The notes under the pieces were generated by a model that saw nothing but the letters and a program-made list of their open reading frames with translations, did not search any database and was not told the origin of the DNA. The position numbers were made by a program, and so were the translations under genes. From a virus: a stretch of DNA of 64,000 nucleotides. The stretch is from positions 14,511 through 78,510 of IMG/VR virus record IMGVR_UViG_3300031566_000014. The stretch is one strand, 5' to 3'. Shown one piece after another: positions 27,616 through 60,356 of this stretch. Positions within the stretch are counted from its first letter, which is position 1. Each line of letters starts with the position of its first letter.

Positions 27616-28833
27616 ATGCGTGCCGAGTTTGCGGCGAAGATGATGTGGCTTGAGCCTGAAATCATCAAGCGGCGAAAGGGAAGGACAGCGGTTATCACGG
27701 CGGAAGGCCGTGGCGAGGTTGCCCGCGCCATCGCCACAACGGCGGCCATCCCGACGCCGAAGGGCGGCGTTGATTTCTACGTGCCATACGACGGCACGGC
27801 GGCGAAGCACGACATGTGCGCCAAGGCCGTCGAGGACGGGATCATCGCGCAGATGATCCCGACGCCCGACCTGCCGCGCACGATGCGGCTGACGGCGCTT
27901 CTGCGGCACTACCGCGAGGTGTGGGACATGTGCTCCGTGGTTCCCGTCTGCCACGACCCCTACGGGCACATCCACATCGCGGCGGACTACGGCGACCTGT
28001 ACTACGGCTACCCGCAAGCCAACTGGCGGCTGAAGTATCTGGGGGAGCCGTGGTGGGAAATCGCGTGGCACGCGCTCGGGGTGCCTGTGGACCCGAAGCT
28101 GCTGAAGCACGCCGCACCCGTGGGCCAGTGTTCGGCCATTGACGACGCCCTGCTGCCGCCGCCGCACCTGACGGGCAAGTGGGACGAGCGCTGCAAGGGC
28201 CAGGTGGAGAACTGGGAGAAGGTGGCGCTGCACGGGGTTCCGCGCTACGCGGTGATCTTGACGAGCGCGGGCGCTGGCAGCCAGGTCAAGTGCGCTCCGA
28301 AGGCCGTGTGGGACGCTATCGTGGGCCACTTGGGCCGACTCGGCGTGCGGTGCGTGCAGGTTGGCTTCAAGATGGACGGGCAGCCGGACGGCGACGTGAT
28401 CGACCGCCGGGGTACGCGGCTTCCGCTTGTGAACCGTCTGCTTCAGGGTGCTCTCTGCTGCATCGCCAACGAGGGCTTCCTGCACTACATGGCCTATGGC
28501 TTGCAGGTGCCCGCCGTAGCGCTCTACGGCCCGACGCCCATAGACGCCTACGGCTTGCCTGGGCATCTGCCGCTGATCCGTGGCGACGGCAAGGGGCACG
28601 CGGCCTGCCCGATGGGGACGTGCTTCTGGACGGCGCGCGAGAACTGGGGCCACGAGTGCATGATGGCAGGCGCCTACACCAGGGATGAGCAGGGCAATGA
28701 GCATCTCGTGAACCCGTGCGACAAGGTGTGCATCAACATGTCTGAGCCGGACGCTGCGGCGGGTGCCGTTGGGGAGTTCGTCATGGCCCTGATGGGCAAG
28801 TTCAAGGGCCGCGAGGAGGATGGGAAGGCATGA
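27616..28833 (+). CDS. glycosyltransferase, GT9 (heptosyltransferase-like)
   Basis: VQVG, IDRRGT.L, IANEGFLHYMA...VPAVALYGPT. Confidence 0.8.
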   Translation: MRAEFAAKMMWLEPEIIKRRKGRTAVITAEGRGEVARAIATTAAIPTPKGGVDFYVPYDGTAAKHDMCAKAVEDGIIAQMIPTPDLPRTMRLTALLRHYREVWDMCSVVPVCHDPYGHIHIAADYGDLYYGYPQANWRLKYLGEPWWEIAWHALGVPVDPKLLKHAAPVGQCSAIDDALLPPPHLTGKWDERCKGQVENWEKVALHGVPRYAVILTSAGAGSQVKCAPKAVWDAIVGHLGRLGVRCVQVGFKMDGQPDGDVIDRRGTRLPLVNRLLQGALCCIANEGFLHYMAYGLQVPAVALYGPTPIDAYGLPGHLPLIRGDGKGHAACPMGTCFWTARENWGHECMMAGAYTRDEQGNEHLVNPCDKVCINMSEPDAAAGAVGEFVMALMGKFKGREEDGKA

Positions 28834-29129
28834 AGCCTGACCTGCCGGACATGGCGATAGAGGACGCGGCGCGCAGGGCGCTTGGCCTGCCGCCTATCGA
28901 GCGCCTAGCCATGCCTCCCGCCATTCTGCCCGACGCCGAGACGCAGCGTGAGAACCCGTGCGCCGGCTGCGAAATGGAGCAGCGAAACCTCCCGCAGTGC
29001 CAGCGCGACGCCGCCCACTGCATCTACGGCATGGGCAACAACCATCGCGGCTACTGGAACGGGCAGCTTCACAAGACGGCGCGCGGCAGGCGCAAGCCCG
29101 ATGCGGACGGCCATGAAGAACGGACATAG
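28830..29129 (+). CDS. small Cys-containing hypothetical protein
   Basis: Coupled ORF, CAGC. Confidence 0.5.
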   Translation: MKPDLPDMAIEDAARRALGLPPIERLAMPPAILPDAETQRENPCAGCEMEQRNLPQCQRDAAHCIYGMGNNHRGYWNGQLHKTARGRRKPDADGHEERT

Positions 29130-50552: not shown

Positions 50553-53500
50553 ATGGGAGCGCTTGACGAACTTGATGCCATCGTCGGTGACGTGCCGCCG
50601 CCTGCGCAGGGACAGGCCCCCGCTACGGGCGGCAGCGCGCTGGCCGAATTGGACGCCATACTGCCGAAGCGCGCGGACGTTGCAGAGTACGCAGGCAAAG
50701 AGCGCTGGGCGGAAATGATCCCCTACGTTGGGCCCGCCGTTGGCCTCGAACGCCAGAGAATCACCCGCAATGCTGCCTTGGTAGCCGCCGGTGAGCAGCA
50801 AGAGCCTACCCCGGCTATTGTCCCGTTTCAAGCCGCTGGCGTCCCTGCTGGCGTCAACCCGCTTACCCGTCGAATGACTCCCGAATCGGCTCAGGGCATT
50901 CTAGCCAAGGATGCGGCCTACAATGAAATGATGGAGCGTGGGCTGACGCCGGGGGCGCAGATACTTCAGGGCGGCGCAAAGATGGTCGGCTACGCGACGG
51001 AAATCGCGGGTGGCGGCGGCATGGCAACATTGACGCGGGGTGCTGCCCGTAAGGGGCTTATGGCGATCCCCGGCATTGCGGTAGCGGCTGGCAAGCGTGG
51101 GATTGCTGGCACGCTCACGCGCGCTGGAATCAAGGTTGCTGGCAGGGTGGCTGGCGAAACTGCCCGTTCCCTCATCACGCCCAGCGCGCTCGCAGGCAAC
51201 TATGAGGACAGGACACGCCAAGGGCAAGGGCCTGGCACGGCGCTTGCTGGCGCCTTCCTGGATACCGTCATCGGCAATGTCGCGGAGCAGAGCGGCGAAG
51301 CCGTGCTGGGCGTCGCCGCCAAGATCGGCGCGAAGATACCTGTCATCGGCAAGGCCGTGACGCTCATCAACGGCGGACTGCGCAAGGCGTGGGCCAAGGC
51401 GGGCTTCTCGGCGGGTGCCTTCGATGCGGCAATGAAGGCCGGCGGCTGGAACGGCGTCATCGCGGAACTCACAGAGGAGCGCGTCGAGCCGTTCCTGAAA
51501 GCCGTGTTCCAGGGCGACGAATGGCGCAAGATCATCCCATCGCTTGAACAGTTGGGCGTCGAGGCGGCGGTGCTGTCCCTGCCCATGGCCCCCGGCATTG
51601 CGATGGGCACCATGCGCAACGCGGCGGGACGGGCTAAGGCCAAGGCCGAAGTCAAGAAGGAGATGGACCGCTTCGTTCACGACGCCATCGCCAAAGGGCT
51701 GGGCGAGGAAGTGGCTCCCCCGCCCCCGCAAGAGGAGGCGCCCCCCGCTCTGGACGAGGCGCAGCAGGCGGCCATGGCCGAGGCGCTGGCGCTTGAGAAG
51801 CAGGGCGTCGCTGCGCCCACGGCGGCTGAGGAACTGGACCAGATCACGGCGGCGCCCCCTGCCGTGGAAGCGCCCCCCCAGACGGCCCCAACTGCCCCCG
51901 AAACCACACCGACTGCCCCTGAGATGCCCGCGAAAGAGGCGGGCGCACAGCCGGTGGTATCAGAAGCCTTACAGGAACCCGCGACGCAGCAGGGGCCGTC
52001 TCCTGCCACCACAGGGGAGATTGCGGCACAAGCCCCCACCACGGAGCGCGCCCGCGTCCACGCCGAGTTCCGCCAGTCCTTCGCCAACCTCGCGCCCGCA
52101 GAGCAGGAGAGCACCCTCGCCATTGCCGACGCCATGGTATTCGCAACGGCGCGGGCCAGCGGCATTGACTCCGAAGATGTGTGGAAGCGGCTCAATTTCG
52201 CCGAGGGCGTGGCTACTGCGCCCGCGACTACCACGGAGGGCATGGCGGCGCTCAAGAAGAAGGGGCTGAAGGCCGTAGCCGTCACGGAACTGGCTGACAG
52301 CCTCAATGCCACGGTAAGGGCGCTCGACGCGCCCACGGTTGACGAGGCCATGCACGAGTTGGGCCATGTGGGCATGGTGTGGCTGCCTACGGACGTGCGC
52401 AAGCAGGCGGAGACGTGGGCGGGCGCGAAGTACGGCAAGTGGGACGTGCCGACGAAGGAGAAGTTCGCCAACGCATTCGTGGAATGGCTCAATGGCAGGG
52501 CACGCGCGCCCAAGGGCTTGGCTCGGGTGTTCAGCGACTTGAAGAAGTGGCTGACCAAGGTGTTCGGCTCGCTGCGCGCGGTGCAAGGGCTTGAGAAGCA
52601 AGAGGCAATCGAGCGGGTGTTCAAGTTCCTGACGGGGGAGGAGGCGGGCAAGGGCGCTGCGGCCCAGGCAGGTCCAAAGGGCGAGTCCCTGTTTGCGGTG
52701 CGCGATCCATGGGAACTGACCAAGGAGGACTATGTTGCTGAAGGTTCCTACGGGCTGCAACAGGCGGTGTTTACGCAGGCGTTCAATCAGGCCATCAAAG
52801 ACGAATACATGAGCGCTGAAAAGGACCGCGGCAAGGTGATGCGCCCGCATAAAATCGCCACGGTTGGCGACGCCCTTGCGCCCGAAGTGCTGGCGCTCTT
52901 CCCAAGGGAGTCCCATGGTGTCGAAATCTGGGTCGCGTCAAGGCTCAACGATGAGTCATTCAGCGGCTTTGCCATAGGTGGCCCAACGGAGGCCGGAGCT
53001 TACAGGATCGTGATGCACCCGCAACAGGCTGCGGCCCGCTACGTGCCCGGCCTGATGCACGAACTCAAACACCTGACAGACATTCTGGCTGGCAAAGAGA
53101 CGACGCCAACGGATGCCATCAGGCGGGAGAGTTACGCCGCATACCGGCGTCTGCCTAGCGAGCGCAGGGCGCGTCGGTTCGAGAAGTCTATGAACAACGC
53201 ATACGTTCATAGGCTGTTCATAGAGCGCGCCATAGAGCAGGGCCGGCAGATTCCACCGGACGTGCTCGCTGACTACCCAGACCTAGCTGGCAAGGGCGCG
53301 GCGGCTGGCGCGGGCGGGAAGCAGACGTTGTTTGCGACGAGGCCGGCTACCAACGAATCCGAACGCGACCGCATGGCCCCCGTGTGGTACTCGAAACTCT
53401 CGCAGGCCGTCGATACCAAGATGGGCGGGCGCGCGACGCCTCAGCAGCTCATGGGCATGCTCAAGGGCGCTGGCGTCAAGGACGAGGAAATCGAATGGAG

Positions 53501-56500
53501 CGGCCTGCCTGAGTTGCTCAAGGGCAAGGGCAGCGTGACGAAGGCCGAGGTGCAGGAGCACCTTGAGGCCAACGCAATCCAAGTGGTGGACGTGGTGAAG
53601 GGGGGGAGACCGTCTGGGGAGCCTCAATGGGCAGTCGTTGACGAGGATGGGCAGCCGCGTTTCAGCAGGCGCTTTGATACGGAGGATGAGGCGTGGGACT
53701 ATGCCGAGCGCTATCAAGGTGAGGACGAGCCGCCGCTTGATGTAGAACAGGTTCCCGGCACGGAAGCCCCTGCCACAAAGTTTTCTCAGTATCAGGCGGT
53801 GCCGGGTGGAGAAAATTACCGGGAACTGCTGCTTCAGATGCCGGCAGCGAAGAAGGCGATTGCACTAGAGCCAACAGTGCCCTTCAATGGAACAGGTGTT
53901 GCGTACCAGGACGGGTCGCGGCAGGTCCAAGGCGTCACAACGACCCCGTGGACCATCGGGTCAGAGCACGGCACGATCACCTACTGGCCATACCGATACG
54001 ACTGGAGCGCACAGCGCACTGGGGCGGAGTACGTCGTTGATTCTGAGAAGATGCAGAACGCCCACTTCAAGACGATGGAGGCCGCCGTGGCCGCTATCGA
54101 GAAGTCCTACGCGGGCACGCAGCGTGGCGAGGACATGGGGGCGTATCGTAGCGACGTGTTCACCGGCCAGCACTGGTCTGAACCCAACGTCCTCGCCCAC
54201 GTGCGCACGTCGGACTTCACGGACGCGCGGGGCAAGCGCGTGCTGGTGATTCAGGAGATTCAGTCAGACTGGCACCAGGAGGGAAGGGAGAAGGGATATG
54301 GGGGCGCGAACGTTCTAACGAAGCAAGACGCGGAGAGCCTGGGGTACTCTGTGCGCCGATCCGCGAGCAGTCGCGGGGGAAGCGCATACTTTCTGGACGG
54401 CCCGAACCTTCCGAGAGGAACCACCAATTACATCGGCTTCGAGACAGAGGCCGAAGCGTGGGACACGCTTGTTGCGAAGTTGCGGGCGCAGATGTCCGAA
54501 AACGCCGTCCCCAACGCCCCCTTCAAGAGCACGTGGCCCACGCTCGCAATGAAGCGAATGATCCGATGGGGCGCGGAGAACGGATACGACAGGATCGCGT
54601 GGAGCACGGGGGCGCAGCAGGCGGACGTGTACAGCCTTGCGACTGCCGTTGACAAGTTGACGTGGAACCCATCTGACGAACGGCCCGGTGGCAAGTATGT
54701 CTACGGAACGAAGGTTGGGCAAGGCGAAGTCGTCGGTATGGGCGTTGACGAACAGGGCAACATCGTCAACGCGAGCATGGACGAACTGAATGGCAAGCAC
54801 TTGTCAGATGCTATTGGCAAAGAGATGGCCGCTCGTGTCATGGCGGAGCCTCGTGGCGAACTCAGCGGCGAGGGCCTCAAGGTCGGCGGCCACGGCATGC
54901 GCGCCTTCTACGATCAGATGCTCGTCAACGAAACGAACAAGCTCGTCAAGCGATACGGAGCGAGGGTGGGGGAGGTGAAGCTGCTGACGATGGATAGCCC
55001 AGTAGGGCCGTTCCCTCTTGATATAGAGGTTCGTGGCGGCAAGTATTGGGTGGTGGATAGCAACAGGGCAAGGGCGTCCGAAGATTTTGGCAGCTATCAG
55101 GAAGCCGACGCACAGCGCCAGAGCATAATGGCGGCGGCGGCTGACGCGGCGAAGGGGCGTGGAAGAACCACCGTCCACGGATTCGACATCACGCCCGCCA
55201 TGCGCGACGAGGCGCTGGGCAAGGGCATGTCCCTCTTTGCCACGCGCCCAGACGAGGAGGGCAGGCCCAAGGGCGTCCCCGTCCCTGCTCTCGCCATGGC
55301 TATCACCCGTGGCCGCGCCTATCTCGATGACGGTGTGACCGACTTCCGCAAGTGGGCGGGTGCCATGGTGGGCGTCTACACGGAGAACATCAAGCCCTAC
55401 CTCGCGCCCATCTACGAGGCGCTGCGCACAGAGGGCACCCACGCCGACGCCATGACGCCACGCGAGAACATCCGCATCCCGCGAAGCCCCAAGGCGGGTA
55501 AGGCCCCCGGCACGGCGAAGCTCGTCACGCCCGAAGGCGGCACACCGCGCGTCGCCCTTGGCCCGCGCCCCACGCCATCGGGCGCCGCCTATCTCGCCGG
55601 CCTTGGCACATCCGAGGAAGCTCGCGCGGGCGTAGACGTGCTCGACACCGAGCGCGAGGAACGCCGCCGCGTGTCCCAACAGATCGCCATGCTCATCAAC
55701 CAGCGGAAGAAGTTCGAGGACGGGGCACCAGAGGCAGTAACGATTGACGAGCGTCTTGAGAAGTTGCGCGAGCGCGAGAATGCCCTGACGCTGGGCGGGC
55801 AGGTGCCGGCCTACGCGCAGACGCCCCTGAAGCCCCTTGAGGACGCCGCAGATGCCCGAGTCGCCGCCGACCCCGTGGCCGAGCGGGCGCGCATCGTCGG
55901 CATGGCCGCCGCCAATCAGGTGCCAGAGGCCGTTGACACGTACATCATGGACCGTCTCGTGGATCAGATCATCCCCGAAGTGCTGACGGCAGACCCCGCC
56001 GAGGTGCCGAACATCACCATCTTCTACGACTCGGTGCGGAAGTTGCGTGGCAACGTCGGCCTTGTCTTTCGCACGATGCAGGACAAGAAGCTGTCACCCG
56101 CTCAGCGCAGGCTCCGCGCTATCTCAGAGGCCATTGCCTTCCCCGCGAAGCCGTGGCTCGACAAGATGGCCGCCGCCGAGAAGGCCGGCAACATGGCCCT
56201 CGTGGCACAACTGCGGAAGCAGCGCGACGAGGAACTCATCGCCTTCCGCGCTATCCTTGCCAAGCACGGCGTGGACCCGAAGAACCTGGGCAAACTCAGT
56301 AAAGACCGTCGCAAGGCCGCCGCCATCCACCGCGAGATGATCACCAGCCGCTCAGGCGGGTGGGACGTGGTGCAGGAACTCTACCGCAATATCCTGCTCT
56401 CGGGCACACCGACGCACAGCGCCAACTTCTTCTCCAACAGCGCCTTCTTTGCTTACCACTTCGGCATCCGCGAGTCGCTTACTGCCCTGTGGAACTCCGC

Positions 56501-58130
56501 CACGGGCGCGAAGGAAGGCACCCACCTGTCTGATCTCAAGCACATGCTCGACTTCACCAGTACGCTCGGGCCGGCCATAGCCGACGCCTATCGCAATGCC
56601 ATCGAGACGTTTGTCACAGAGATACCCACGATGGAGGAGTTGCACGGCGAGGAAGGGCAGGCCAAGTTTGTCGAGGGCGGCGTCGCCATCGCAGGCAAGA
56701 AGGGCAGGGCCATCCGCTATCCGCAGCGCTGGCTCATGGCAATGGATGACTTCGCCGTGACCCTCGCCGCGCGGATCAAGGTCGCCATGGTGGCCCACCG
56801 CATGGCCGTCAACGAGGGCTTCAAGGGCGCGGAACTCACCGAGCGCATGCAGGCGCTCATCGCGGACCCCGTATCCCCAGCGTGGAAGAAGGCTATCGAG
56901 CTTTCCCAGGAAGTCACGTTCAAGGGCAAGCCCGACCCCTTCGCCCAGTGGGTGATCAATATCCGCAAGAAGCATCGCTGGGCCTACTTCTCCTTCCCCT
57001 TCATCACGACCCCCGCGCACATCGCCGTAACGGGCATGAAGATGTCGCCCTACCGCCTGCTGCGGCACCTTGCCCTGCCTTACACGGCGGGCGTAGCGGC
57101 CATCACGGGCGACTGGAGCCGAGTCAAGAACTCACTGGCAGGCCACAAGATTGCTGCCGATCTCATTTCCGCCGGCCTCCTGTGGCTCATCATCGGCCAG
57201 GACGACGACGACCCGTGGATTACGGGCAAGGACGGGATCAACGGCCAGAACCGCTACAGCATCAAGATCGCAGGCCAGTGGTGGTCATACTACCGCATCG
57301 AGCCGTTCGCAACTGCCCTCGCCGCCACGGTTGACCTTGGCAGAGGCATCAAGTCGGGCGACCCGTCCGTGGCCGTCCGCGAAGGCTCCATGGGCTTCCT
57401 TCAGCAGATGGGCGACAAGACCTACTTCCAAGGCATCCAAGACCTCTATCGCGCCGTGGGCGAACCCGTAGCGGGCAGGGCAGACCTTGTTGATTCTCTC
57501 GCCACCTATGCCAGCCGCTTCGCGTCCTCGTGGGTGCCCAACTTCATCAAGGCACCCGCCCGCGCCTTGCAGGCCACGATCAAGGAACGCCGCGCCTACG
57601 GCAAGCCCGGCACCCGAGCCGGCCTGCTTCTCGGTCAACGGGCGCTTCAGCAAGCCGAGCTTGCCCCCGGCCTCGACCATCCACGATACGACATGTGGGG
57701 CCGCCCAATGCTCCGCGACGGCTCCCCGTGGAACTACGCCGCAACGGACTTCCTGTGGCGAATGATCGCCCCCGCCCAAGTCGGAAAGACCCAACCCTAT
57801 GTCGGCGATGTGATGGTCTACAACTGGAACCGCCTGCATCCCATGGATGAGTTCCACCCCCGGCCGCCCGACCGCTCCCTGACATGGCGTGGCAAGAAAG
57901 CCTACATGGACGACGCCACGTATGAGAAGTTCATGCAGGAAGTGGGGACGCGCACCAAGGCTGGCTTCGATGCGTGGTTCGCCGTGGCAGAGCGCTACGG
58001 CGCGACACTCGACCCGCAGAACCCCTCGCCCGAAATGAAGAACCAACTAGAGAGTATCCGCGAGAGGGCTACTAATGCGGCGCGCGCCGTCGTGATCAGA
58101 ATGATGGCGGAGCGCGGCGAGTTGAAGTAG
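50553..58130 (+). CDS. large polyvalent / ejection protein
   Basis: 2525 aa; HELGH and HELKH motifs; WYSKL, GGENYRELLL, EIQSDWHQ block; LPD38-like SYYRIEPFA near C-terminus. Confidence 0.8.
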   Translation: MGALDELDAIVGDVPPPAQGQAPATGGSALAELDAILPKRADVAEYAGKERWAEMIPYVGPAVGLERQRITRNAALVAAGEQQEPTPAIVPFQAAGVPAGVNPLTRRMTPESAQGILAKDAAYNEMMERGLTPGAQILQGGAKMVGYATEIAGGGGMATLTRGAARKGLMAIPGIAVAAGKRGIAGTLTRAGIKVAGRVAGETARSLITPSALAGNYEDRTRQGQGPGTALAGAFLDTVIGNVAEQSGEAVLGVAAKIGAKIPVIGKAVTLINGGLRKAWAKAGFSAGAFDAAMKAGGWNGVIAELTEERVEPFLKAVFQGDEWRKIIPSLEQLGVEAAVLSLPMAPGIAMGTMRNAAGRAKAKAEVKKEMDRFVHDAIAKGLGEEVAPPPPQEEAPPALDEAQQAAMAEALALEKQGVAAPTAAEELDQITAAPPAVEAPPQTAPTAPETTPTAPEMPAKEAGAQPVVSEALQEPATQQGPSPATTGEIAAQAPTTERARVHAEFRQSFANLAPAEQESTLAIADAMVFATARASGIDSEDVWKRLNFAEGVATAPATTTEGMAALKKKGLKAVAVTELADSLNATVRALDAPTVDEAMHELGHVGMVWLPTDVRKQAETWAGAKYGKWDVPTKEKFANAFVEWLNGRARAPKGLARVFSDLKKWLTKVFGSLRAVQGLEKQEAIERVFKFLTGEEAGKGAAAQAGPKGESLFAVRDPWELTKEDYVAEGSYGLQQAVFTQAFNQAIKDEYMSAEKDRGKVMRPHKIATVGDALAPEVLALFPRESHGVEIWVASRLNDESFSGFAIGGPTEAGAYRIVMHPQQAAARYVPGLMHELKHLTDILAGKETTPTDAIRRESYAAYRRLPSERRARRFEKSMNNAYVHRLFIERAIEQGRQIPPDVLADYPDLAGKGAAAGAGGKQTLFATRPATNESERDRMAPVWYSKLSQAVDTKMGGRATPQQLMGMLKGAGVKDEEIEWSGLPELLKGKGSVTKAEVQEHLEANAIQVVDVVKGGRPSGEPQWAVVDEDGQPRFSRRFDTEDEAWDYAERYQGEDEPPLDVEQVPGTEAPATKFSQYQAVPGGENYRELLLQMPAAKKAIALEPTVPFNGTGVAYQDGSRQVQGVTTTPWTIGSEHGTITYWPYRYDWSAQRTGAEYVVDSEKMQNAHFKTMEAAVAAIEKSYAGTQRGEDMGAYRSDVFTGQHWSEPNVLAHVRTSDFTDARGKRVLVIQEIQSDWHQEGREKGYGGANVLTKQDAESLGYSVRRSASSRGGSAYFLDGPNLPRGTTNYIGFETEAEAWDTLVAKLRAQMSENAVPNAPFKSTWPTLAMKRMIRWGAENGYDRIAWSTGAQQADVYSLATAVDKLTWNPSDERPGGKYVYGTKVGQGEVVGMGVDEQGNIVNASMDELNGKHLSDAIGKEMAARVMAEPRGELSGEGLKVGGHGMRAFYDQMLVNETNKLVKRYGARVGEVKLLTMDSPVGPFPLDIEVRGGKYWVVDSNRARASEDFGSYQEADAQRQSIMAAAADAAKGRGRTTVHGFDITPAMRDEALGKGMSLFATRPDEEGRPKGVPVPALAMAITRGRAYLDDGVTDFRKWAGAMVGVYTENIKPYLAPIYEALRTEGTHADAMTPRENIRIPRSPKAGKAPGTAKLVTPEGGTPRVALGPRPTPSGAAYLAGLGTSEEARAGVDVLDTEREERRRVSQQIAMLINQRKKFEDGAPEAVTIDERLEKLRERENALTLGGQVPAYAQTPLKPLEDAADARVAADPVAERARIVGMAAANQVPEAVDTYIMDRLVDQIIPEVLTADPAEVPNITIFYDSVRKLRGNVGLVFRTMQDKKLSPAQRRLRAISEAIAFPAKPWLDKMAAAEKAGNMALVAQLRKQRDEELIAFRAILAKHGVDPKNLGKLSKDRRKAAAIHREMITSRSGGWDVVQELYRNILLSGTPTHSANFFSNSAFFAYHFGIRESLTALWNSATGAKEGTHLSDLKHMLDFTSTLGPAIADAYRNAIETFVTEIPTMEELHGEEGQAKFVEGGVAIAGKKGRAIRYPQRWLMAMDDFAVTLAARIKVAMVAHRMAVNEGFKGAELTERMQALIADPVSPAWKKAIELSQEVTFKGKPDPFAQWVINIRKKHRWAYFSFPFITTPAHIAVTGMKMSPYRLLRHLALPYTAGVAAITGDWSRVKNSLAGHKIAADLISAGLLWLIIGQDDDDPWITGKDGINGQNRYSIKIAGQWWSYYRIEPFATALAATVDLGRGIKSGDPSVAVREGSMGFLQQMGDKTYFQGIQDLYRAVGEPVAGRADLVDSLATYASRFASSWVPNFIKAPARALQATIKERRAYGKPGTRAGLLLGQRALQQAELAPGLDHPRYDMWGRPMLRDGSPWNYAATDFLWRMIAPAQVGKTQPYVGDVMVYNWNRLHPMDEFHPRPPDRSLTWRGKKAYMDDATYEKFMQEVGTRTKAGFDAWFAVAERYGATLDPQNPSPEMKNQLESIRERATNAARAVVIRMMAERGELK

Positions 58131-58161
58131 CCCCACCCCCTAGCTTGCGGGCGGGGGCTGC
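58127..58161. terminator. GC hairpin at the convergence of the late operon and the pentamer array
   Basis: GTAGCCCCACCCCC-TAGCTTGC-GGGCGGGGGCTGC. Confidence 0.5.
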
Positions 58162-58890
58162 CTCGCCTTGCCTTGCCGTAGCGATGCATGGTCATGCCGG
58201 GCCTTGCCTCTGCCGGGCCGTGCCTGTCTCCGCCTCGGCTCGGTTGCGCTCTGCCCAGCCATGCCACCGCCGGTCACCGCTGGCCAAGGCAGTGCCTCAG
58301 CGTCGGGCTGCTGCGCATCGCCGTCGCTGCGGTTGCCATGCGCTTCCGGTGCCATGCCTCCCGTGGCCTCGCTCCGCCCCCGCCAAGTAGTGCAGCGCAG
58401 TCCCGTGCTATCGCTCCGCCACGCCAAGCGACGCATCGCGCCGCCATGGCTCAGCTTGGCTCTCCACGCCCCCGCGGCGCTAGGAGCCGCATCGCCACGG
58501 CAATGCAAGGCACCGCCAAGCGCGGCCTGGCCTTGCCCCTGCCTTGGGTCGCATCACCTCGCCGTCTCTGTGCTTGGCATTGCCCCGCCGGGCCGTGCGG
58601 CGCCGTGCCGTCTCTGTGCTTTGCTTCGCGGCGACGGGCGTCCGTTGCCACTCACTGCCTCAGCATCGCGGTGCACTCCTCCGCTGCGCCGTTGCTAAGC
58701 GCCGAGCCGCGCAGCAGCGCCCCTGCGGCGCAAAGTGCGGCTCCGCGGGGCTGCGCCCCGCCGTTGCCGAGCGCCGCCGGACTCAGCGTGGTTCCGCAGC
58801 ACATCGCCATCGCCTCGTAGCGCAAGGTTGCGCGTGGCCTCGACTGGCGCAGCCATCGCGGCGCCCCGCAAGTCCGATCTGGGCACCGCC
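58158..58890 (-). ncRNA. NGC-NN pentamer-periodic array (candidate guide-RNA locus)
   Basis: Minus strand reads GGCGG TGCCC ... GGCAA GGCAA GGCGA GGCAG; ~140 units in ~23 blocks, each usually closed by a hexamer; no credible ORF. Confidence 0.8.
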
Positions 58891-58956
58891 CTAGCCTGTC
58901 ACCTCCTTGGCCTTCGCCAGAGTCACCTCGGCGGTGAAGGCTCCGTGGCCCGCATT
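58891..58956 (-). pseudogene. orphaned original 3' end of the RAMP gene
   Basis: Encodes NAGHGAFTAEVTLAKAKEVTG*, paralogous to NSGMGRF of the RAMP Gly loop. Confidence 0.75.
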
Positions 58957-58959
58957 CAC

Positions 58960-58988
58960 TTGACAGCATCCTTTCCCTGTGATAGAAT
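58960..58988 (+). promoter_or_regulatory. sigma70 promoter for HNH gene (likely leaderless mRNA)
   Basis: TTGACA-17-TAGAAT with TG extension; ATG 6 nt downstream, no RBS. Confidence 0.8.
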
Positions 58989-58994
58989 GACGGC

Positions 58995-59543
58995 ATGCAT
59001 TACCATCGCCGCGAGCCAAAGGTTCTTCGTACATGCGAACATTGCGGCAAGCGATTCATCGTACTCGCGAACCGCATCAGATACAAAGCGTGCAGATTTT
59101 GTAGCCATAGGTGCTACATAGCGTCCTTTGGTCCACGAAGCAAGCGAGTGATATGCCCAATGTGCGGCACAGAGTTTACTGTGCAGATGCATGTTGTGCG
59201 TAAGACTGTGTGGGGGCCATTCTGTTCTCGCCGGTGCTATGGCAAGTGGAGAAGCGCTCATGTGAAGGGCGATAACTGCTCCTGGTGGCGTGGCGGGAAG
59301 ACCGTGTACTACCAAGGGCATTGGAAACGACAACGCCAAGCCGCGAAACGGCGCGACAATTGGACGTGCCAGTCGTGCCATAGAACATTCGCGCCGCGTA
59401 GCCGCGGAATTGACGTCCACCATGTAATCCCCTACACCGTGGGCCAAGACCCGGAGATTGCGCACGCCCTCGACAACCTCATTTCGCTTTGTCGGCAGTG
59501 TCATAATGCACTGCACCGGGGGCAAGAACGCACTCGTGAATAA
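58995..59543 (+). CDS. HNH homing endonuclease with Zn-finger repeats
   Basis: CEHCG..FCSHRC, CPMCG..FCSRRC, WWRGG, RDNWTCQSC, DVHHVIP, NLISLCRQCHNALH; lower GC. Confidence 0.9.
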   Translation: MHYHRREPKVLRTCEHCGKRFIVLANRIRYKACRFCSHRCYIASFGPRSKRVICPMCGTEFTVQMHVVRKTVWGPFCSRRCYGKWRSAHVKGDNCSWWRGGKTVYYQGHWKRQRQAAKRRDNWTCQSCHRTFAPRSRGIDVHHVIPYTVGQDPEIAHALDNLISLCRQCHNALHRGQERTRE

Positions 59544-60261
59544 ATCTACCCATTCCGGAATTCCTCCACTGCCCCAACCCGCGAAGCTGTCCGTAGTCGA
59601 ACCACTCCTGCACCATCGGAAGCAGTTCCTTCCGCAGCAGCTTCACTTGGAACCGCAGCATGGTCCCAGCGGGCACGCTCTGCGAACGGGCCAGCGCCAC
59701 GCGCTCGCCCTGGGCCGTCTGCGCGCGAAGCGGGCGCTCGCAGTACCCGATCTCTGCGCCTTCCGGCAGTTCCAGCCGAATGCGGCGCGGCGTCACGAAG
59801 ATCAGGCCGTCGATCTCCTTCTTGTACGCCTTGAGCTTCTTGCTCTCCGTGCCGTCAGCCCGCCGCAGCATCCCGCAGGCGTCCTTGAAAAAGCCCTTCA
59901 CGGTGTAATCGTACACGAACGGGCAGCCGTCAGCATCCTGCATGAAGACGGTCGTGCCCAGGGCGATCTCCTCGTCCACGGGGATGGCCTCAGACTCGTC
60001 CTCGGCCTCGCCGTTGTCGGGCCGCTTCGACTCCACGAAGGTCTTGTACACCTCCTTGTCGCCGGGCGAGGTGCCCAACATCTGCTCCGTCAGCGTCAGG
60101 ATCACGTCCAGAGTAAGGAAGCCGTTGCGTTTCGCGGCTGCCGTCGCCAGCGCTTCCGATACGGGGGCGGCGCTGCCGCCGGCACCCGGAGTCACTACCT
60201 CGTGCTCCGCGTGCGCGCTCCGGGGCACCTGCCTGTGTTTCGCCATTCCCAATTCCGCCAT
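59479..60261 (-). CDS. solitary RAMP / Cas7-like RNA-binding protein
   Basis: AGGAG RBS; LTLTEQMLGT strand, YTVKGFFKDAC helix, ERPLRAQT..GER thumb, SVPAG, terminal Gly-rich loop GLGQWRNSGMGRF. Confidence 0.8.
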   Translation of the reverse strand: MAELGMAKHRQVPRSAHAEHEVVTPGAGGSAAPVSEALATAAAKRNGFLTLDVILTLTEQMLGTSPGDKEVYKTFVESKRPDNGEAEDESEAIPVDEEIALGTTVFMQDADGCPFVYDYTVKGFFKDACGMLRRADGTESKKLKAYKKEIDGLIFVTPRRIRLELPEGAEIGYCERPLRAQTAQGERVALARSQSVPAGTMLRFQVKLLRKELLPMVQEWFDYGQLRGLGQWRNSGMGRFIHECVLAPGAVHYDTADKAK

Positions 60262-60356
60262 GTCACGTCTCCTATGCAGCCTGGTCGTGTGTGTCGGCAA
60301 GCGGACGGCTGCTTCCCGCTTGCCTCTTGCGGGCGCGCCGCTCGGCGCGTTCCCTG

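What the first reader, a model, noticed from the sequence alone, without database searches (positions are those of the whole stretch)
58127..60261. Solitary RAMP/Cas7-like protein paired with a pentamer-periodic non-coding array: candidate phage RNA-guided system without CRISPR
Seen: the minus-strand gene 60261-59479 has RAMP hallmarks (N-terminal strand LTLTEQMLGT, helix YTVKGFFKDAC, thumb-like ERPLRAQTAQGER, C-terminal Gly loop GLGQWRNSGMGRF). No other cas gene and no repeat-spacer array is present in the window. Downstream on the same strand lies ~730 nt in which GC recurs every 5 nt with variable flanks (NGC-NN), closed by a hairpin. The array starts at the base right after the stop codon of the gene's apparent original 3' end (58891). 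Known: Cas7-family RAMPs polymerise on guide RNA with a fixed nucleotide step. Inference: each subunit binds one constant NGC and displays the variable NN(N) bases, so the guide would read its target through a gapped, non-contiguous code, for example to silence competing phages or host genes. From memory this resembles the recently reported phage VIPR architecture (solo RAMP plus GGY/NN repeats), which I cannot verify here. This copy has a relaxed first base (NGC rather than GGY).
Basis: partly seen in the sequence, partly recalled or inferred. Interest (0 to 1): 0.96.

Follow-up and report, generated by a model that had tools for sequence, protein, structure and literature searches.

The report
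Soil-phage VIPR system with HNH insertion
This soil phage carries a VIPR system, a CRISPR-related class first described in 2026 (a lone Cas7-like protein followed by a 734-base array of five-letter guide units), so it is a further member of a known kind, with a mobile HNH endonuclease gene inserted into the protein gene.

Summary

The protein belongs to a very large family (2186 clusters at 50% identity). In 78 of 80 related viral loci, the strongest 5-nt periodicity lies directly beside the gene. The relaxed motif corresponds to the published "YNNNG" variant. The 5k+1-nt punctuated units resemble the published "staggered arrays".

A contig from another soil run lacks the 624-bp HNH cassette. 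It restores a reading frame that ends at 58891, one base before the array.

Not shown here: transcription, binding, or any target. All decoding searches were at chance level.

This scan has noted VIPR-like loci on other DNA many times (866 notes, at least 501 genomes), including this protein family. Verdict: a new member of a known kind; interest is modest.

The parts
59479..60261 (-). vipr gene in its present form: a 260-aa single-domain Cas7-like RAMP. Residues 44-250 form the fold; residues 1-43 are a low-confidence N-terminal extension.
59545..59583 (-). Codons of the Gly-rich loop GLGQWRNSGMGRF. From 59560 downward the codons come from the inserted cassette.
   Evidence: Invariant G228, G230, W232, R233, N234, G238. 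Aligns with the SUSP1 G-loop GVGDWRPRFGRF. Junction at 59561.
58937..59560 (.). 624-bp mobile cassette. It is absent from an allele in another soil run, has lower G+C (55% against 66% in vipr), and supplies the last 27 codons of the present vipr gene.
   Evidence: Contig joint 58936|59561 in run X3, with 18 other letters between the two sides. G+C content and translation.
58995..59543 (+). HNH endonuclease gene (182 aa), convergent with vipr and overlapping its 3' end.
   Evidence: PF01844 at 2.9e-11. PHROG HNH families down to 1e-20. Single copy in the genome.
58960..58988 (+). Sigma-70-like promoter TTGACA-17-TAGAAT (11 of 12 matches, with TG before the -10), 6 nt upstream of the HNH start codon.
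   Evidence: This is a consensus match only.
58891..58960 (-). Remnant of the original vipr 3' end: a decayed second copy of the G-loop codons (NAGHGAF), then TAEVTLAKAKEVTG and the stop codon.
   Evidence: Alignment to family C-termini. Read-through of the HNH-free allele.
58157..58890 (-). Candidate vrRNA array: 22 head-to-tail units holding 138 [N-G-C-N-N] pentamers. Thirteen of the 22 units are 5k+1 nt long (16 to 46 nt), and 20 of 22 begin with GGC.
   Evidence: The same grammar is seen in relatives.
58128..58158 (.). G+C-rich hairpin between the end of the array and the stop codon of the convergent 2525-aa gene. It has no U tract.

Best explanation
The locus is a VIPR (Viral Interference Programmable Repeat) system of a soil phage.

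The gene encodes a Vipr protein, a minimal single-RRM Cas7-like RAMP. The 734 nt that originally began one base after its stop codon encode guide RNAs on the same strand.

By analogy with the solved SUSP1 system, one protomer would bind each 5-nt step. It would hold the constant G-C (positions G2 and Y3 of GGY) between the thumb and the Gly-rich loop, and would present the variable bases for gapped pairing with double-stranded DNA. The result would be silencing of genes of rival mobile elements or of the host.

In this protein clade only G2 and, less strictly, Y3 are fixed. A full GGC appears only at the first pentamer of each unit. Units are set apart by one extra base (5k+1 nt) and not by a structured tail. 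I infer that the extra base either marks a processing site or breaks the filament register, so that each unit of 3 to 10 pentamers acts as one short guide.

Later, a mobile HNH endonuclease cassette entered the Gly-loop codons. It replaced the gene's last codons with its own version and now separates the gene from the array by about 590 nt.

Shown here: the fold, the family, the conserved gene-array association, the grammar of the array, and the polymorphism of the insertion. Inferred: transcription, RNP formation, the pairing rule and the biological targets.
For: Fold:
- Foldseek E 1e-8 with probability 1.0.
- The best BFVD match is a phage protein named "Cas system-associated RAMP superfamily protein", 53% identical.
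- Weak sequence hits all point to RAMPs: Csm4 at 0.014, Cas7 at 0.066, Cas7_IIId at 0.0013.

Family and association:
- 2186 clusters at 50% identity.
- 78 of 80 related viral loci have their periodicity peak touching the gene.
- In 50 whole phage genomes, arrays lie beside vipr in 49 and always on the gene strand; four weak signals elsewhere look like false positives.

Grammar shared with the window:
- The consensus is N-G-(C>A)-N-N.
- 809 of 1231 runs are 5k+1 nt long, with peaks at 26, 31 and 36 nt.
- The junction motif is GCAA-N-GG(C/A).

Published match:
- Vipr plus pentamer vrRNAs, YNNNG/NNNNG variants and staggered arrays with 1-nt offsets.
- A six-unit guide (18-bp footprint) works in SUSP1.

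Link to SUSP1 Vipr:
- Collinear hhalign over the full length, E 7e-4.
- G-loop profile-profile match, E 2.5e-4.
- The SUSP1 residues that read G1 (H17, D177) align with T64 and Q231 here. Those that read G2 and Y3 (W178, R179) align with the invariant W232 and R233. This fits an array that keeps G-C and has lost G1.

Strain differences inside the array fall on N4, N5 and the extra base.
Against: - No RNA data exist for this phage, and no promoter-like site for the array strand was found after the HNH cassette.
- No target was found under any decoding rule.
- Sequence similarity to the experimentally characterised type II Vipr is weak (probability 26-43%). An HMM of this family finds nothing in the SUSP1 genome.
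- There is no conserved accessory (vap) gene and no structured 3' tail.
- The cassette may have uncoupled the array from its gene, so this copy could be impaired.
- The residue correspondences rest on low-probability alignments.
Confidence: 0.85

Rival explanations
1. The locus is a VIPR system by descent but is crippled in this phage. The HNH cassette, with its own strong antisense promoter, cut the array off from the vipr promoter and changed the protein's C-terminus, so the array is now a relic.
For: - The cassette lies between the gene and the array and is transcribed convergently from a near-consensus promoter.
- No minus-strand promoter-like site was found upstream of the array.
- An HNH-free allele coexists in nature.
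Against: - The cassette preserves the G-loop (NSGMGRF) and a predicted beta4 strand with good confidence.
- The array keeps a clean grammar: 108 of 138 G-C cores and 20 of 22 GGC unit starts.
- No terminator-like site lies between the gene and the array, so read-through is possible.
Confidence: 0.15
2. The protein is an RNA-targeting Cas7, like its closest solved structural matches (Csm3, type VII Cas7). The array guides it to transcripts and not to double-stranded DNA.
For: The top structural matches are all RNA-targeting Cas7 subunits.
Against: - The published Vipr proteins, which share the locus architecture, bind dsDNA.
- No other type III or type VII subunit is present.
- Structural rank among RAMPs does not indicate the substrate.
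Confidence: 0.07
3. The periodic tract acts as DNA and not as RNA: phased binding sites, bent DNA or a recombination substrate. It only happens to sit next to a RAMP gene.
For: A 5-nt period is half a helical turn. No expression evidence exists here.
Against: - The association with this one gene family holds in 78 of 80 loci and 49 of 50 genomes, and always on the gene strand.
- The tract begins right after the stop codon.
- Equivalent arrays of the published system are transcribed and co-purify with the protein.
Confidence: 0.03

Closest known systems
VIPR systems with relaxed repeats (YNNNG/NNNNG) and "staggered" vrRNA arrays, as named in bioRxiv 10.64898/2026.04.26.720920 (methods; fig. S17, S18)
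   Same: - A lone Vipr RAMP in a virus and no CRISPR array.
- A pentamer array in which only G-Y is fixed.
- Guides that abut one another with a 1-nt offset and have no tail.
   Different: I could not see the figures or data tables, so I cannot say whether this clade, or which of the seven types, is meant. Here there is no conserved vap gene, and an HNH cassette interrupts the gene.
Type II VIPR of Escherichia phage SUSP1 (Vipr ALH47069.1, vap1, four GGY/NN vrRNAs) and the P. fulva prophage
   Same: - A roughly 195-200-aa single-RRM RAMP with a thumb and a GxGxWR...GRF loop.
- Pentamer guides on the gene strand beside the gene, in a phage.
- Short guides of about 6 units are functional there.
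   Different: - Sequence similarity is only at profile level (E 2.5e-4 to 7e-4).
- SUSP1 has a strict GGY, 9-16 repeats per guide, a structured 3' tail with a pseudoknot and a vap1 partner.
- Here G1 is free inside units, guides are 3-10 repeats long and delimited by one extra base, and there is no tail and no vap.
- The G1-reading residues H17 and D177 are replaced by T64 and Q231.
Cas7 backbone subunits of class 1 CRISPR-Cas (Csm3 of type III-A, e.g. 6XN3 and 6IFN; Cas7 of type VII, 8YHD)
   Different: - There is no repeat-spacer array, no Cas10, Cas5, Cas6, Cas11 or Cas14 partners, and no adaptation genes.
- The step is 5 nt with 2-3 constant bases, against a 6-nt step with one flipped base.
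Free-standing HNH homing endonuclease genes of phages (own knowledge: for example the T4 mob genes)
   Same: - A small HNH ORF with its own promoter.
- Lower G+C than its surroundings.
- Present or absent between closely related genomes.
- Inserted at the most conserved codons of a conserved gene without destroying it.
   Different: - Cleavage specificity and mobility are untested.
- The insertion left a decayed duplicate of the target codons instead of a clean intergenic position.
- Only distant relatives exist in the databases (37% identity at best).

Membership tests
VIPR (Vipr protein + vrRNA) | Stand-alone context: no CRISPR array and no other cas genes | tested here: met
   No CRISPR-like repeats and a single RAMP in the 78.5-kb record. 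Neighbouring ORFs match no Pfam or PADLOC family.
VIPR (Vipr protein + vrRNA) | Adjacent tandem pentamer repeats with a constant GGY or a related consensus (NNNGG, YNNNG, NNNNG) alternating with variable bases, at least 4 units | tested here: met
   138 pentamers with G2 at 91% and C3 at 88%, which equals YNNNG. Periodicity z 8.9.
VIPR (Vipr protein + vrRNA) | The gene-array association is conserved across homologues | tested here: met
   78 of 80 viral loci. 49 of 50 whole phage genomes, on the gene strand and, apart from four weak signals, nowhere else.
VIPR (Vipr protein + vrRNA) | Sequence homology to published Vipr proteins (PSI-BLAST family seeded on X1U2U4; SUSP1 Vipr) | tested here: inconclusive
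   hhalign E 7e-4 (probability 26%, full length) and 2.5e-4 (probability 43%, G-loop only). The family HMM finds nothing in SUSP1. The preprint's tables are not held.
VIPR (Vipr protein + vrRNA) | Accessory vap gene next to vipr (typical of most types, not stated to be obligatory) | tested here: not met
   No conserved neighbour in 80 loci apart from synteny with a cI-like repressor and an integrase. The HNH gene is an insertion and is not conserved: 2 distant hits in 231 held stretches.
VIPR (Vipr protein + vrRNA) | Array transcribed into small RNAs that co-purify with the protein | not testable with these tools
   No RNA run is listed for this DNA.
VIPR (Vipr protein + vrRNA) | Variable dinucleotides spell natural targets under the 1-nt skip rule | tested here: inconclusive
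   There was no excess over shuffled controls in any held sequence, and the collection scans gave nothing or chance-level hits. The likely targets, soil phages and their hosts, are poorly represented.
Type II VIPR (SUSP1 clade) | Strict GGY, 9-16 repeats per vrRNA, conserved structured 3' tail | tested here: not met
   G1 is G in only 34% of internal pentamers. Units hold 3-10 pentamers and abut without tails. So this is not a type II member.
Class 1 CRISPR-Cas effector (type III / VII Cas7) | Repeat-spacer array and partner subunits (Cas10/Cas5/Cas11 or Cas14) | tested here: not met
   None in the whole record.

The most novel reading that the evidence does not exclude
Two readings are not excluded by the evidence.

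(1) In this very large Vipr clade, guides are delimited purely by register. A full GGC would nucleate the filament, relaxed N-G-C pentamers would extend it, and a single extra base would end it. The freed first base may then be read as a third specificity letter, giving a 3-of-5 code.

(2) The HNH element is a homing endonuclease specialised on the Gly-loop codons of vipr genes. It would be a selfish element, or a rival phage's weapon, that lives on VIPR systems.
Probability: 0.2. Interest if true: 0.6.

Novelty: new member of a known kind. Interest (0 to 1): 0.3.

Why it matters
VIPR was described only in 2026, from E. coli and Pseudomonas phages. This locus makes four points.
- The class reaches high-G+C soil phages.
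- It belongs to a clade that appears very large (2186 clusters at 50% identity) and that dominates gut and rumen prophages.
- It offers a natural experiment in how the protein grips its guide. The two residues that read the first G in SUSP1 are replaced here, and the first G is free in the array.
- The 5k+1 punctuation and the HNH insertion (with an uninterrupted allele in nature) give ready-made constructs for testing how guides are delimited and whether the gene and array must be co-transcribed.

None of this changes the known picture of the class.

Tried and rejected
Targets
- Units were decoded as NN with 0-3 skipped bases and as contiguous or skipped triplets (N4 N5 N1). They were searched in the phage's own 78.5 kb and in 80 related loci. 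Nothing exceeded shuffled controls. The apparent excess under the period-5 rules reflects residual array sequence.
- 261 family units searched against 2 Mb of 50 related phage genomes gave no excess under any rule. Windows spanning unit boundaries gave none either. Two earlier scripts for these searches timed out.
- IMG/VR scans found nothing: the 1-nt-skip patterns of units 58854 and 58808, contiguous-triplet patterns of two window units and of one relative's unit.
- A JGI metagenome scan with unit 58609 gave 9 hits. They lie in unrelated genes and frames and are not wobble-aligned, which is about the chance number.

Expression
- No RNA holder is listed.

RNA families and terminators
- Rfam gave only a sub-threshold SAH riboswitch match, E 0.43. 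No hammerhead ribozyme was found.
- No intrinsic terminator-like site was found.

Other protein checks
- Pfam, PHROGs and NCBIfam have no family for the protein.
- The family HMM finds nothing in the SUSP1 genome.
- The substitution tally by pentamer position shows that only G2 is strongly constrained. N1 varies about as much as N4 and N5, so it does not settle whether N1 is read.

HNH as an accessory (vap) nuclease
- Rejected. The gene is absent from an allele, lies on the opposite strand, and is not conserved in relatives.

Full report
**What is there**

The window belongs to a 78.5-kb virus record from a soil metagenome.

On the minus strand, an ORF runs from an ATG at 60261 to a stop at 59479. 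An AGGAG lies 7 nt upstream of the ATG.

Downstream on the same strand, from 58890 to 58157, the sequence is not coding: the period-3 signal disappears. Instead it has a G-C dinucleotide every fifth base.
- 46% of GC dinucleotides have another GC at +5.
- In 1000 dinucleotide-preserving shuffles the mean was 19% (sd 3%, maximum 30%), z 8.9.
- In the rest of the window the figure is about 11%, and no other region approaches the array.

A phase-tracking segmentation gives 22 head-to-tail units with 138 pentamers of the form N-G-C-N-N (G 91%, C 88%).
- Thirteen of the 22 units are 5k+1 nt long (16, 26, 31, 36, 41 or 46 nt).
- The base before the first G-C of a unit is G in 20 of 22 units, against 34% for internal pentamers.
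- The segmentation tends to place the extra base at a GG, but the GG itself is in the sequence.

A G+C-rich hairpin at 58128-58158 sits between the array and the stop codon of the convergent 2525-aa gene. That gene has PHROG matches to families annotated internal virion protein and endolysin. The hairpin has no U tract.

**The protein**

No Pfam, PHROG or NCBIfam family covers the protein. Even so, it has more than 6600 homologues of about 200 aa. A family profile finds 2186 clusters at 50% identity, 901 of them below 1e-30.

An AlphaFold model built on 59 sequences has pLDDT above 90 over the core. Its order of elements is that of a one-RRM RAMP: beta1 (49-57), helix 1 (118-132), a long beta-hairpin (172-196), helix 2 (211-227), a Gly-rich loop and beta4 (240-247).

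- Foldseek against the PDB returns only Cas7-type subunits at the top (E 1e-8, probability 1.0).
- The best viral match is a phage protein already named a RAMP superfamily protein.
- The whole record has no CRISPR-like repeat and no second RAMP, and the neighbours match nothing.

**Is the pairing of gene and array real?**

Yes.
- In 78 of 80 related IMG/VR loci, the strongest 5-nt periodicity lies directly against the gene, upstream or downstream.
- I fetched 50 of those phage genomes whole (2 Mb). Arrays appear beside the gene in 49, always with the purine-rich strand on the gene strand. Only four weak signals, probably false positives, lie elsewhere.

The grammar is the family's, not a quirk of this phage.
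- The consensus is N-G-(C>A)-N-N.
- 809 of 1231 runs are 5k+1 nt long, with peaks at 26, 31 and 36 nt.
- The junction is conserved as GCAA-N-GG(C/A).
- In relatives, as here, the array can start right after the stop codon.
- In relatives the locus usually lies a few kb from a cI-like repressor and an integrase. No conserved partner gene was found.
- The family is common in prophages of gut and rumen Clostridia, Bacteroidota and Atopobiaceae. This high-G+C soil copy is the outlier: its nearest relative is 63% identical.

**Comparison with what is known**

Three 2026 bioRxiv preprints describe Viral Interference Programmable Repeat systems.
- A lone Vipr RAMP is encoded mostly by phages and is flanked by vrRNAs made of GGY/NN pentamers.
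- One protomer binds each repeat and sequesters GGY.
- The NN bases pair with dsDNA while skipping every third target base.
- The result is silencing of rival elements.

The first preprint's methods state that some clades use NNNGG, YNNNG or NNNNG repeats. They also describe "staggered arrays", in which one vrRNA ends where the next starts with a 1-nt offset. The present N-G-C-N-N motif is YNNNG in that notation, and its 5k+1 punctuation fits the description of staggered arrays. A six-unit guide with an 18-bp footprint is functional in SUSP1, so units of 5-9 pentamers are not too short.

I located the SUSP1 locus (KT454805.2; arrays at 27.6-28.0 kb and 29.2 kb; vipr at 28474-29061) and compared the proteins.
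- The family HMM does not find it.
- hhalign gives a collinear full-length alignment at E 7e-4.
- A profile-profile match over the Gly loop gives E 2.5e-4: GLGQWRNSGxGRF against GVGDWRPRFGRF.

So membership of the VIPR class rests on fold, context and array. It does not rest on strong sequence homology to the characterised type II proteins, and this is not a type II member: no strict GGY, no 3' tail, no vap.

**A mechanistic detail that fits**

In the SUSP1 structures:
- G1 is read by H17 and D177.
- G2 is read by thumb R138 and W178.
- Y3 is read by R179 and neighbouring residues.

In the alignments, H17 and D177 correspond to T64 and Q231 here. Both are nearly invariant in this family. W178 and R179 correspond to the invariant W232 and R233. 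The protein has therefore kept the residues for the two bases that the array keeps and changed the residues for the base that the array has freed. This is an inference from low-probability alignments, not a demonstration.

**The HNH cassette**

Between the gene and the array lies a plus-strand HNH endonuclease ORF (58995-59543). A near-consensus promoter sits just upstream of it. Its G+C is 55%, against 66% for vipr.

Contigs of a different soil run include one that joins 58936 to 59561, skipping 624 nt, with 18 other letters in between. Read through, that allele gives ...GLGQWRNSGCGRYTAEVTLAKAKEVTG-stop, ending at 58891, with the array starting at 58890.

The cassette therefore entered the Gly-loop codons. 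It supplies a replacement end (NSGMGRFIHECVL...) and left a decayed duplicate of those codons (NAGHGAF) downstream.

It is not an accessory nuclease of the system. It is polymorphic, lies on the opposite strand, and is absent from relatives.

Whether the array is still expressed behind the cassette is open. No terminator-like site intervenes, but no promoter-like site for the array strand was found either.

**What could not be shown**

No RNA run holds this DNA.

Searches covered the phage itself, related loci, 50 related genomes, IMG/VR and one metagenome scan. All results were at chance level.

The four strain differences seen inside the array fall on N4, N5, N4 and the extra base. This agrees with variable guide positions, but the number is too small to count as a test.

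Across near-identical units in relatives, only G2 is strongly constrained. N1 varies about as much as N4 and N5, so whether N1 is read remains open.

**Verdict**

- The thing is a VIPR system of the relaxed-repeat, tail-less kind, which is a known class. This scan has already noted such loci many times on other DNA, including this protein family.
- It is a new member and not a new kind.
- The HNH insertion with its natural uninterrupted allele, and the residue changes that match the relaxed repeat, are the points specific to this copy.

Noticed in passing
window 58937-59560: The HNH cassette is polymorphic in nature. A 335-nt contig from another soil study joins 58936 to 59561 with 18 different letters between, restoring an uninterrupted vipr. 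The insertion point lies inside the most conserved codons of the gene (the Gly loop).
   Followed up: yes
window 58960-58988 (+): Near-consensus sigma-70 promoter (TTGACA, 17 nt, TAGAAT, with TG before the -10) directly upstream of the HNH start. It points into the 3' end of vipr, so transcription would be convergent.
   Followed up: partly
P0121 (458 aa) and P0122 (432 aa): Two family members are about twice the normal length and match the profile in two stretches. They may be tandem-fused double Vipr proteins.
   Followed up: no
related loci L001-L080, about 2-3 kb upstream of vipr: In gut and rumen relatives, the vipr locus usually lies next to a divergently oriented cI-like HTH repressor (43 of 80 loci), with an integrase further upstream in some (10 of 80). 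This places it in the lysogeny/early region.
   Followed up: partly
window 50553-58130 (+): The convergent 2525-aa ORF has no Pfam hit. It matches PHROG families annotated internal virion protein and endolysin. Its stop codon overlaps the hairpin that closes the array.
   Followed up: no
window 60300-60335 (-): Perfect 9-bp hairpin (GGCAAGCGG ... CCGCTTGCC) in the 95-nt spacer upstream of vipr, after the 79-aa ORF 60596-60357. It may separate vipr from the upstream genes.
   Followed up: no
window 58563-58642 (-): Two units end with the same 11 nt (AGCACAGAGAC). Tandem Repeats Finder also reports two short 16-nt duplications at 58195-58225 and 58325-58357. This hints that the array grows by local duplication.
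   Followed up: no
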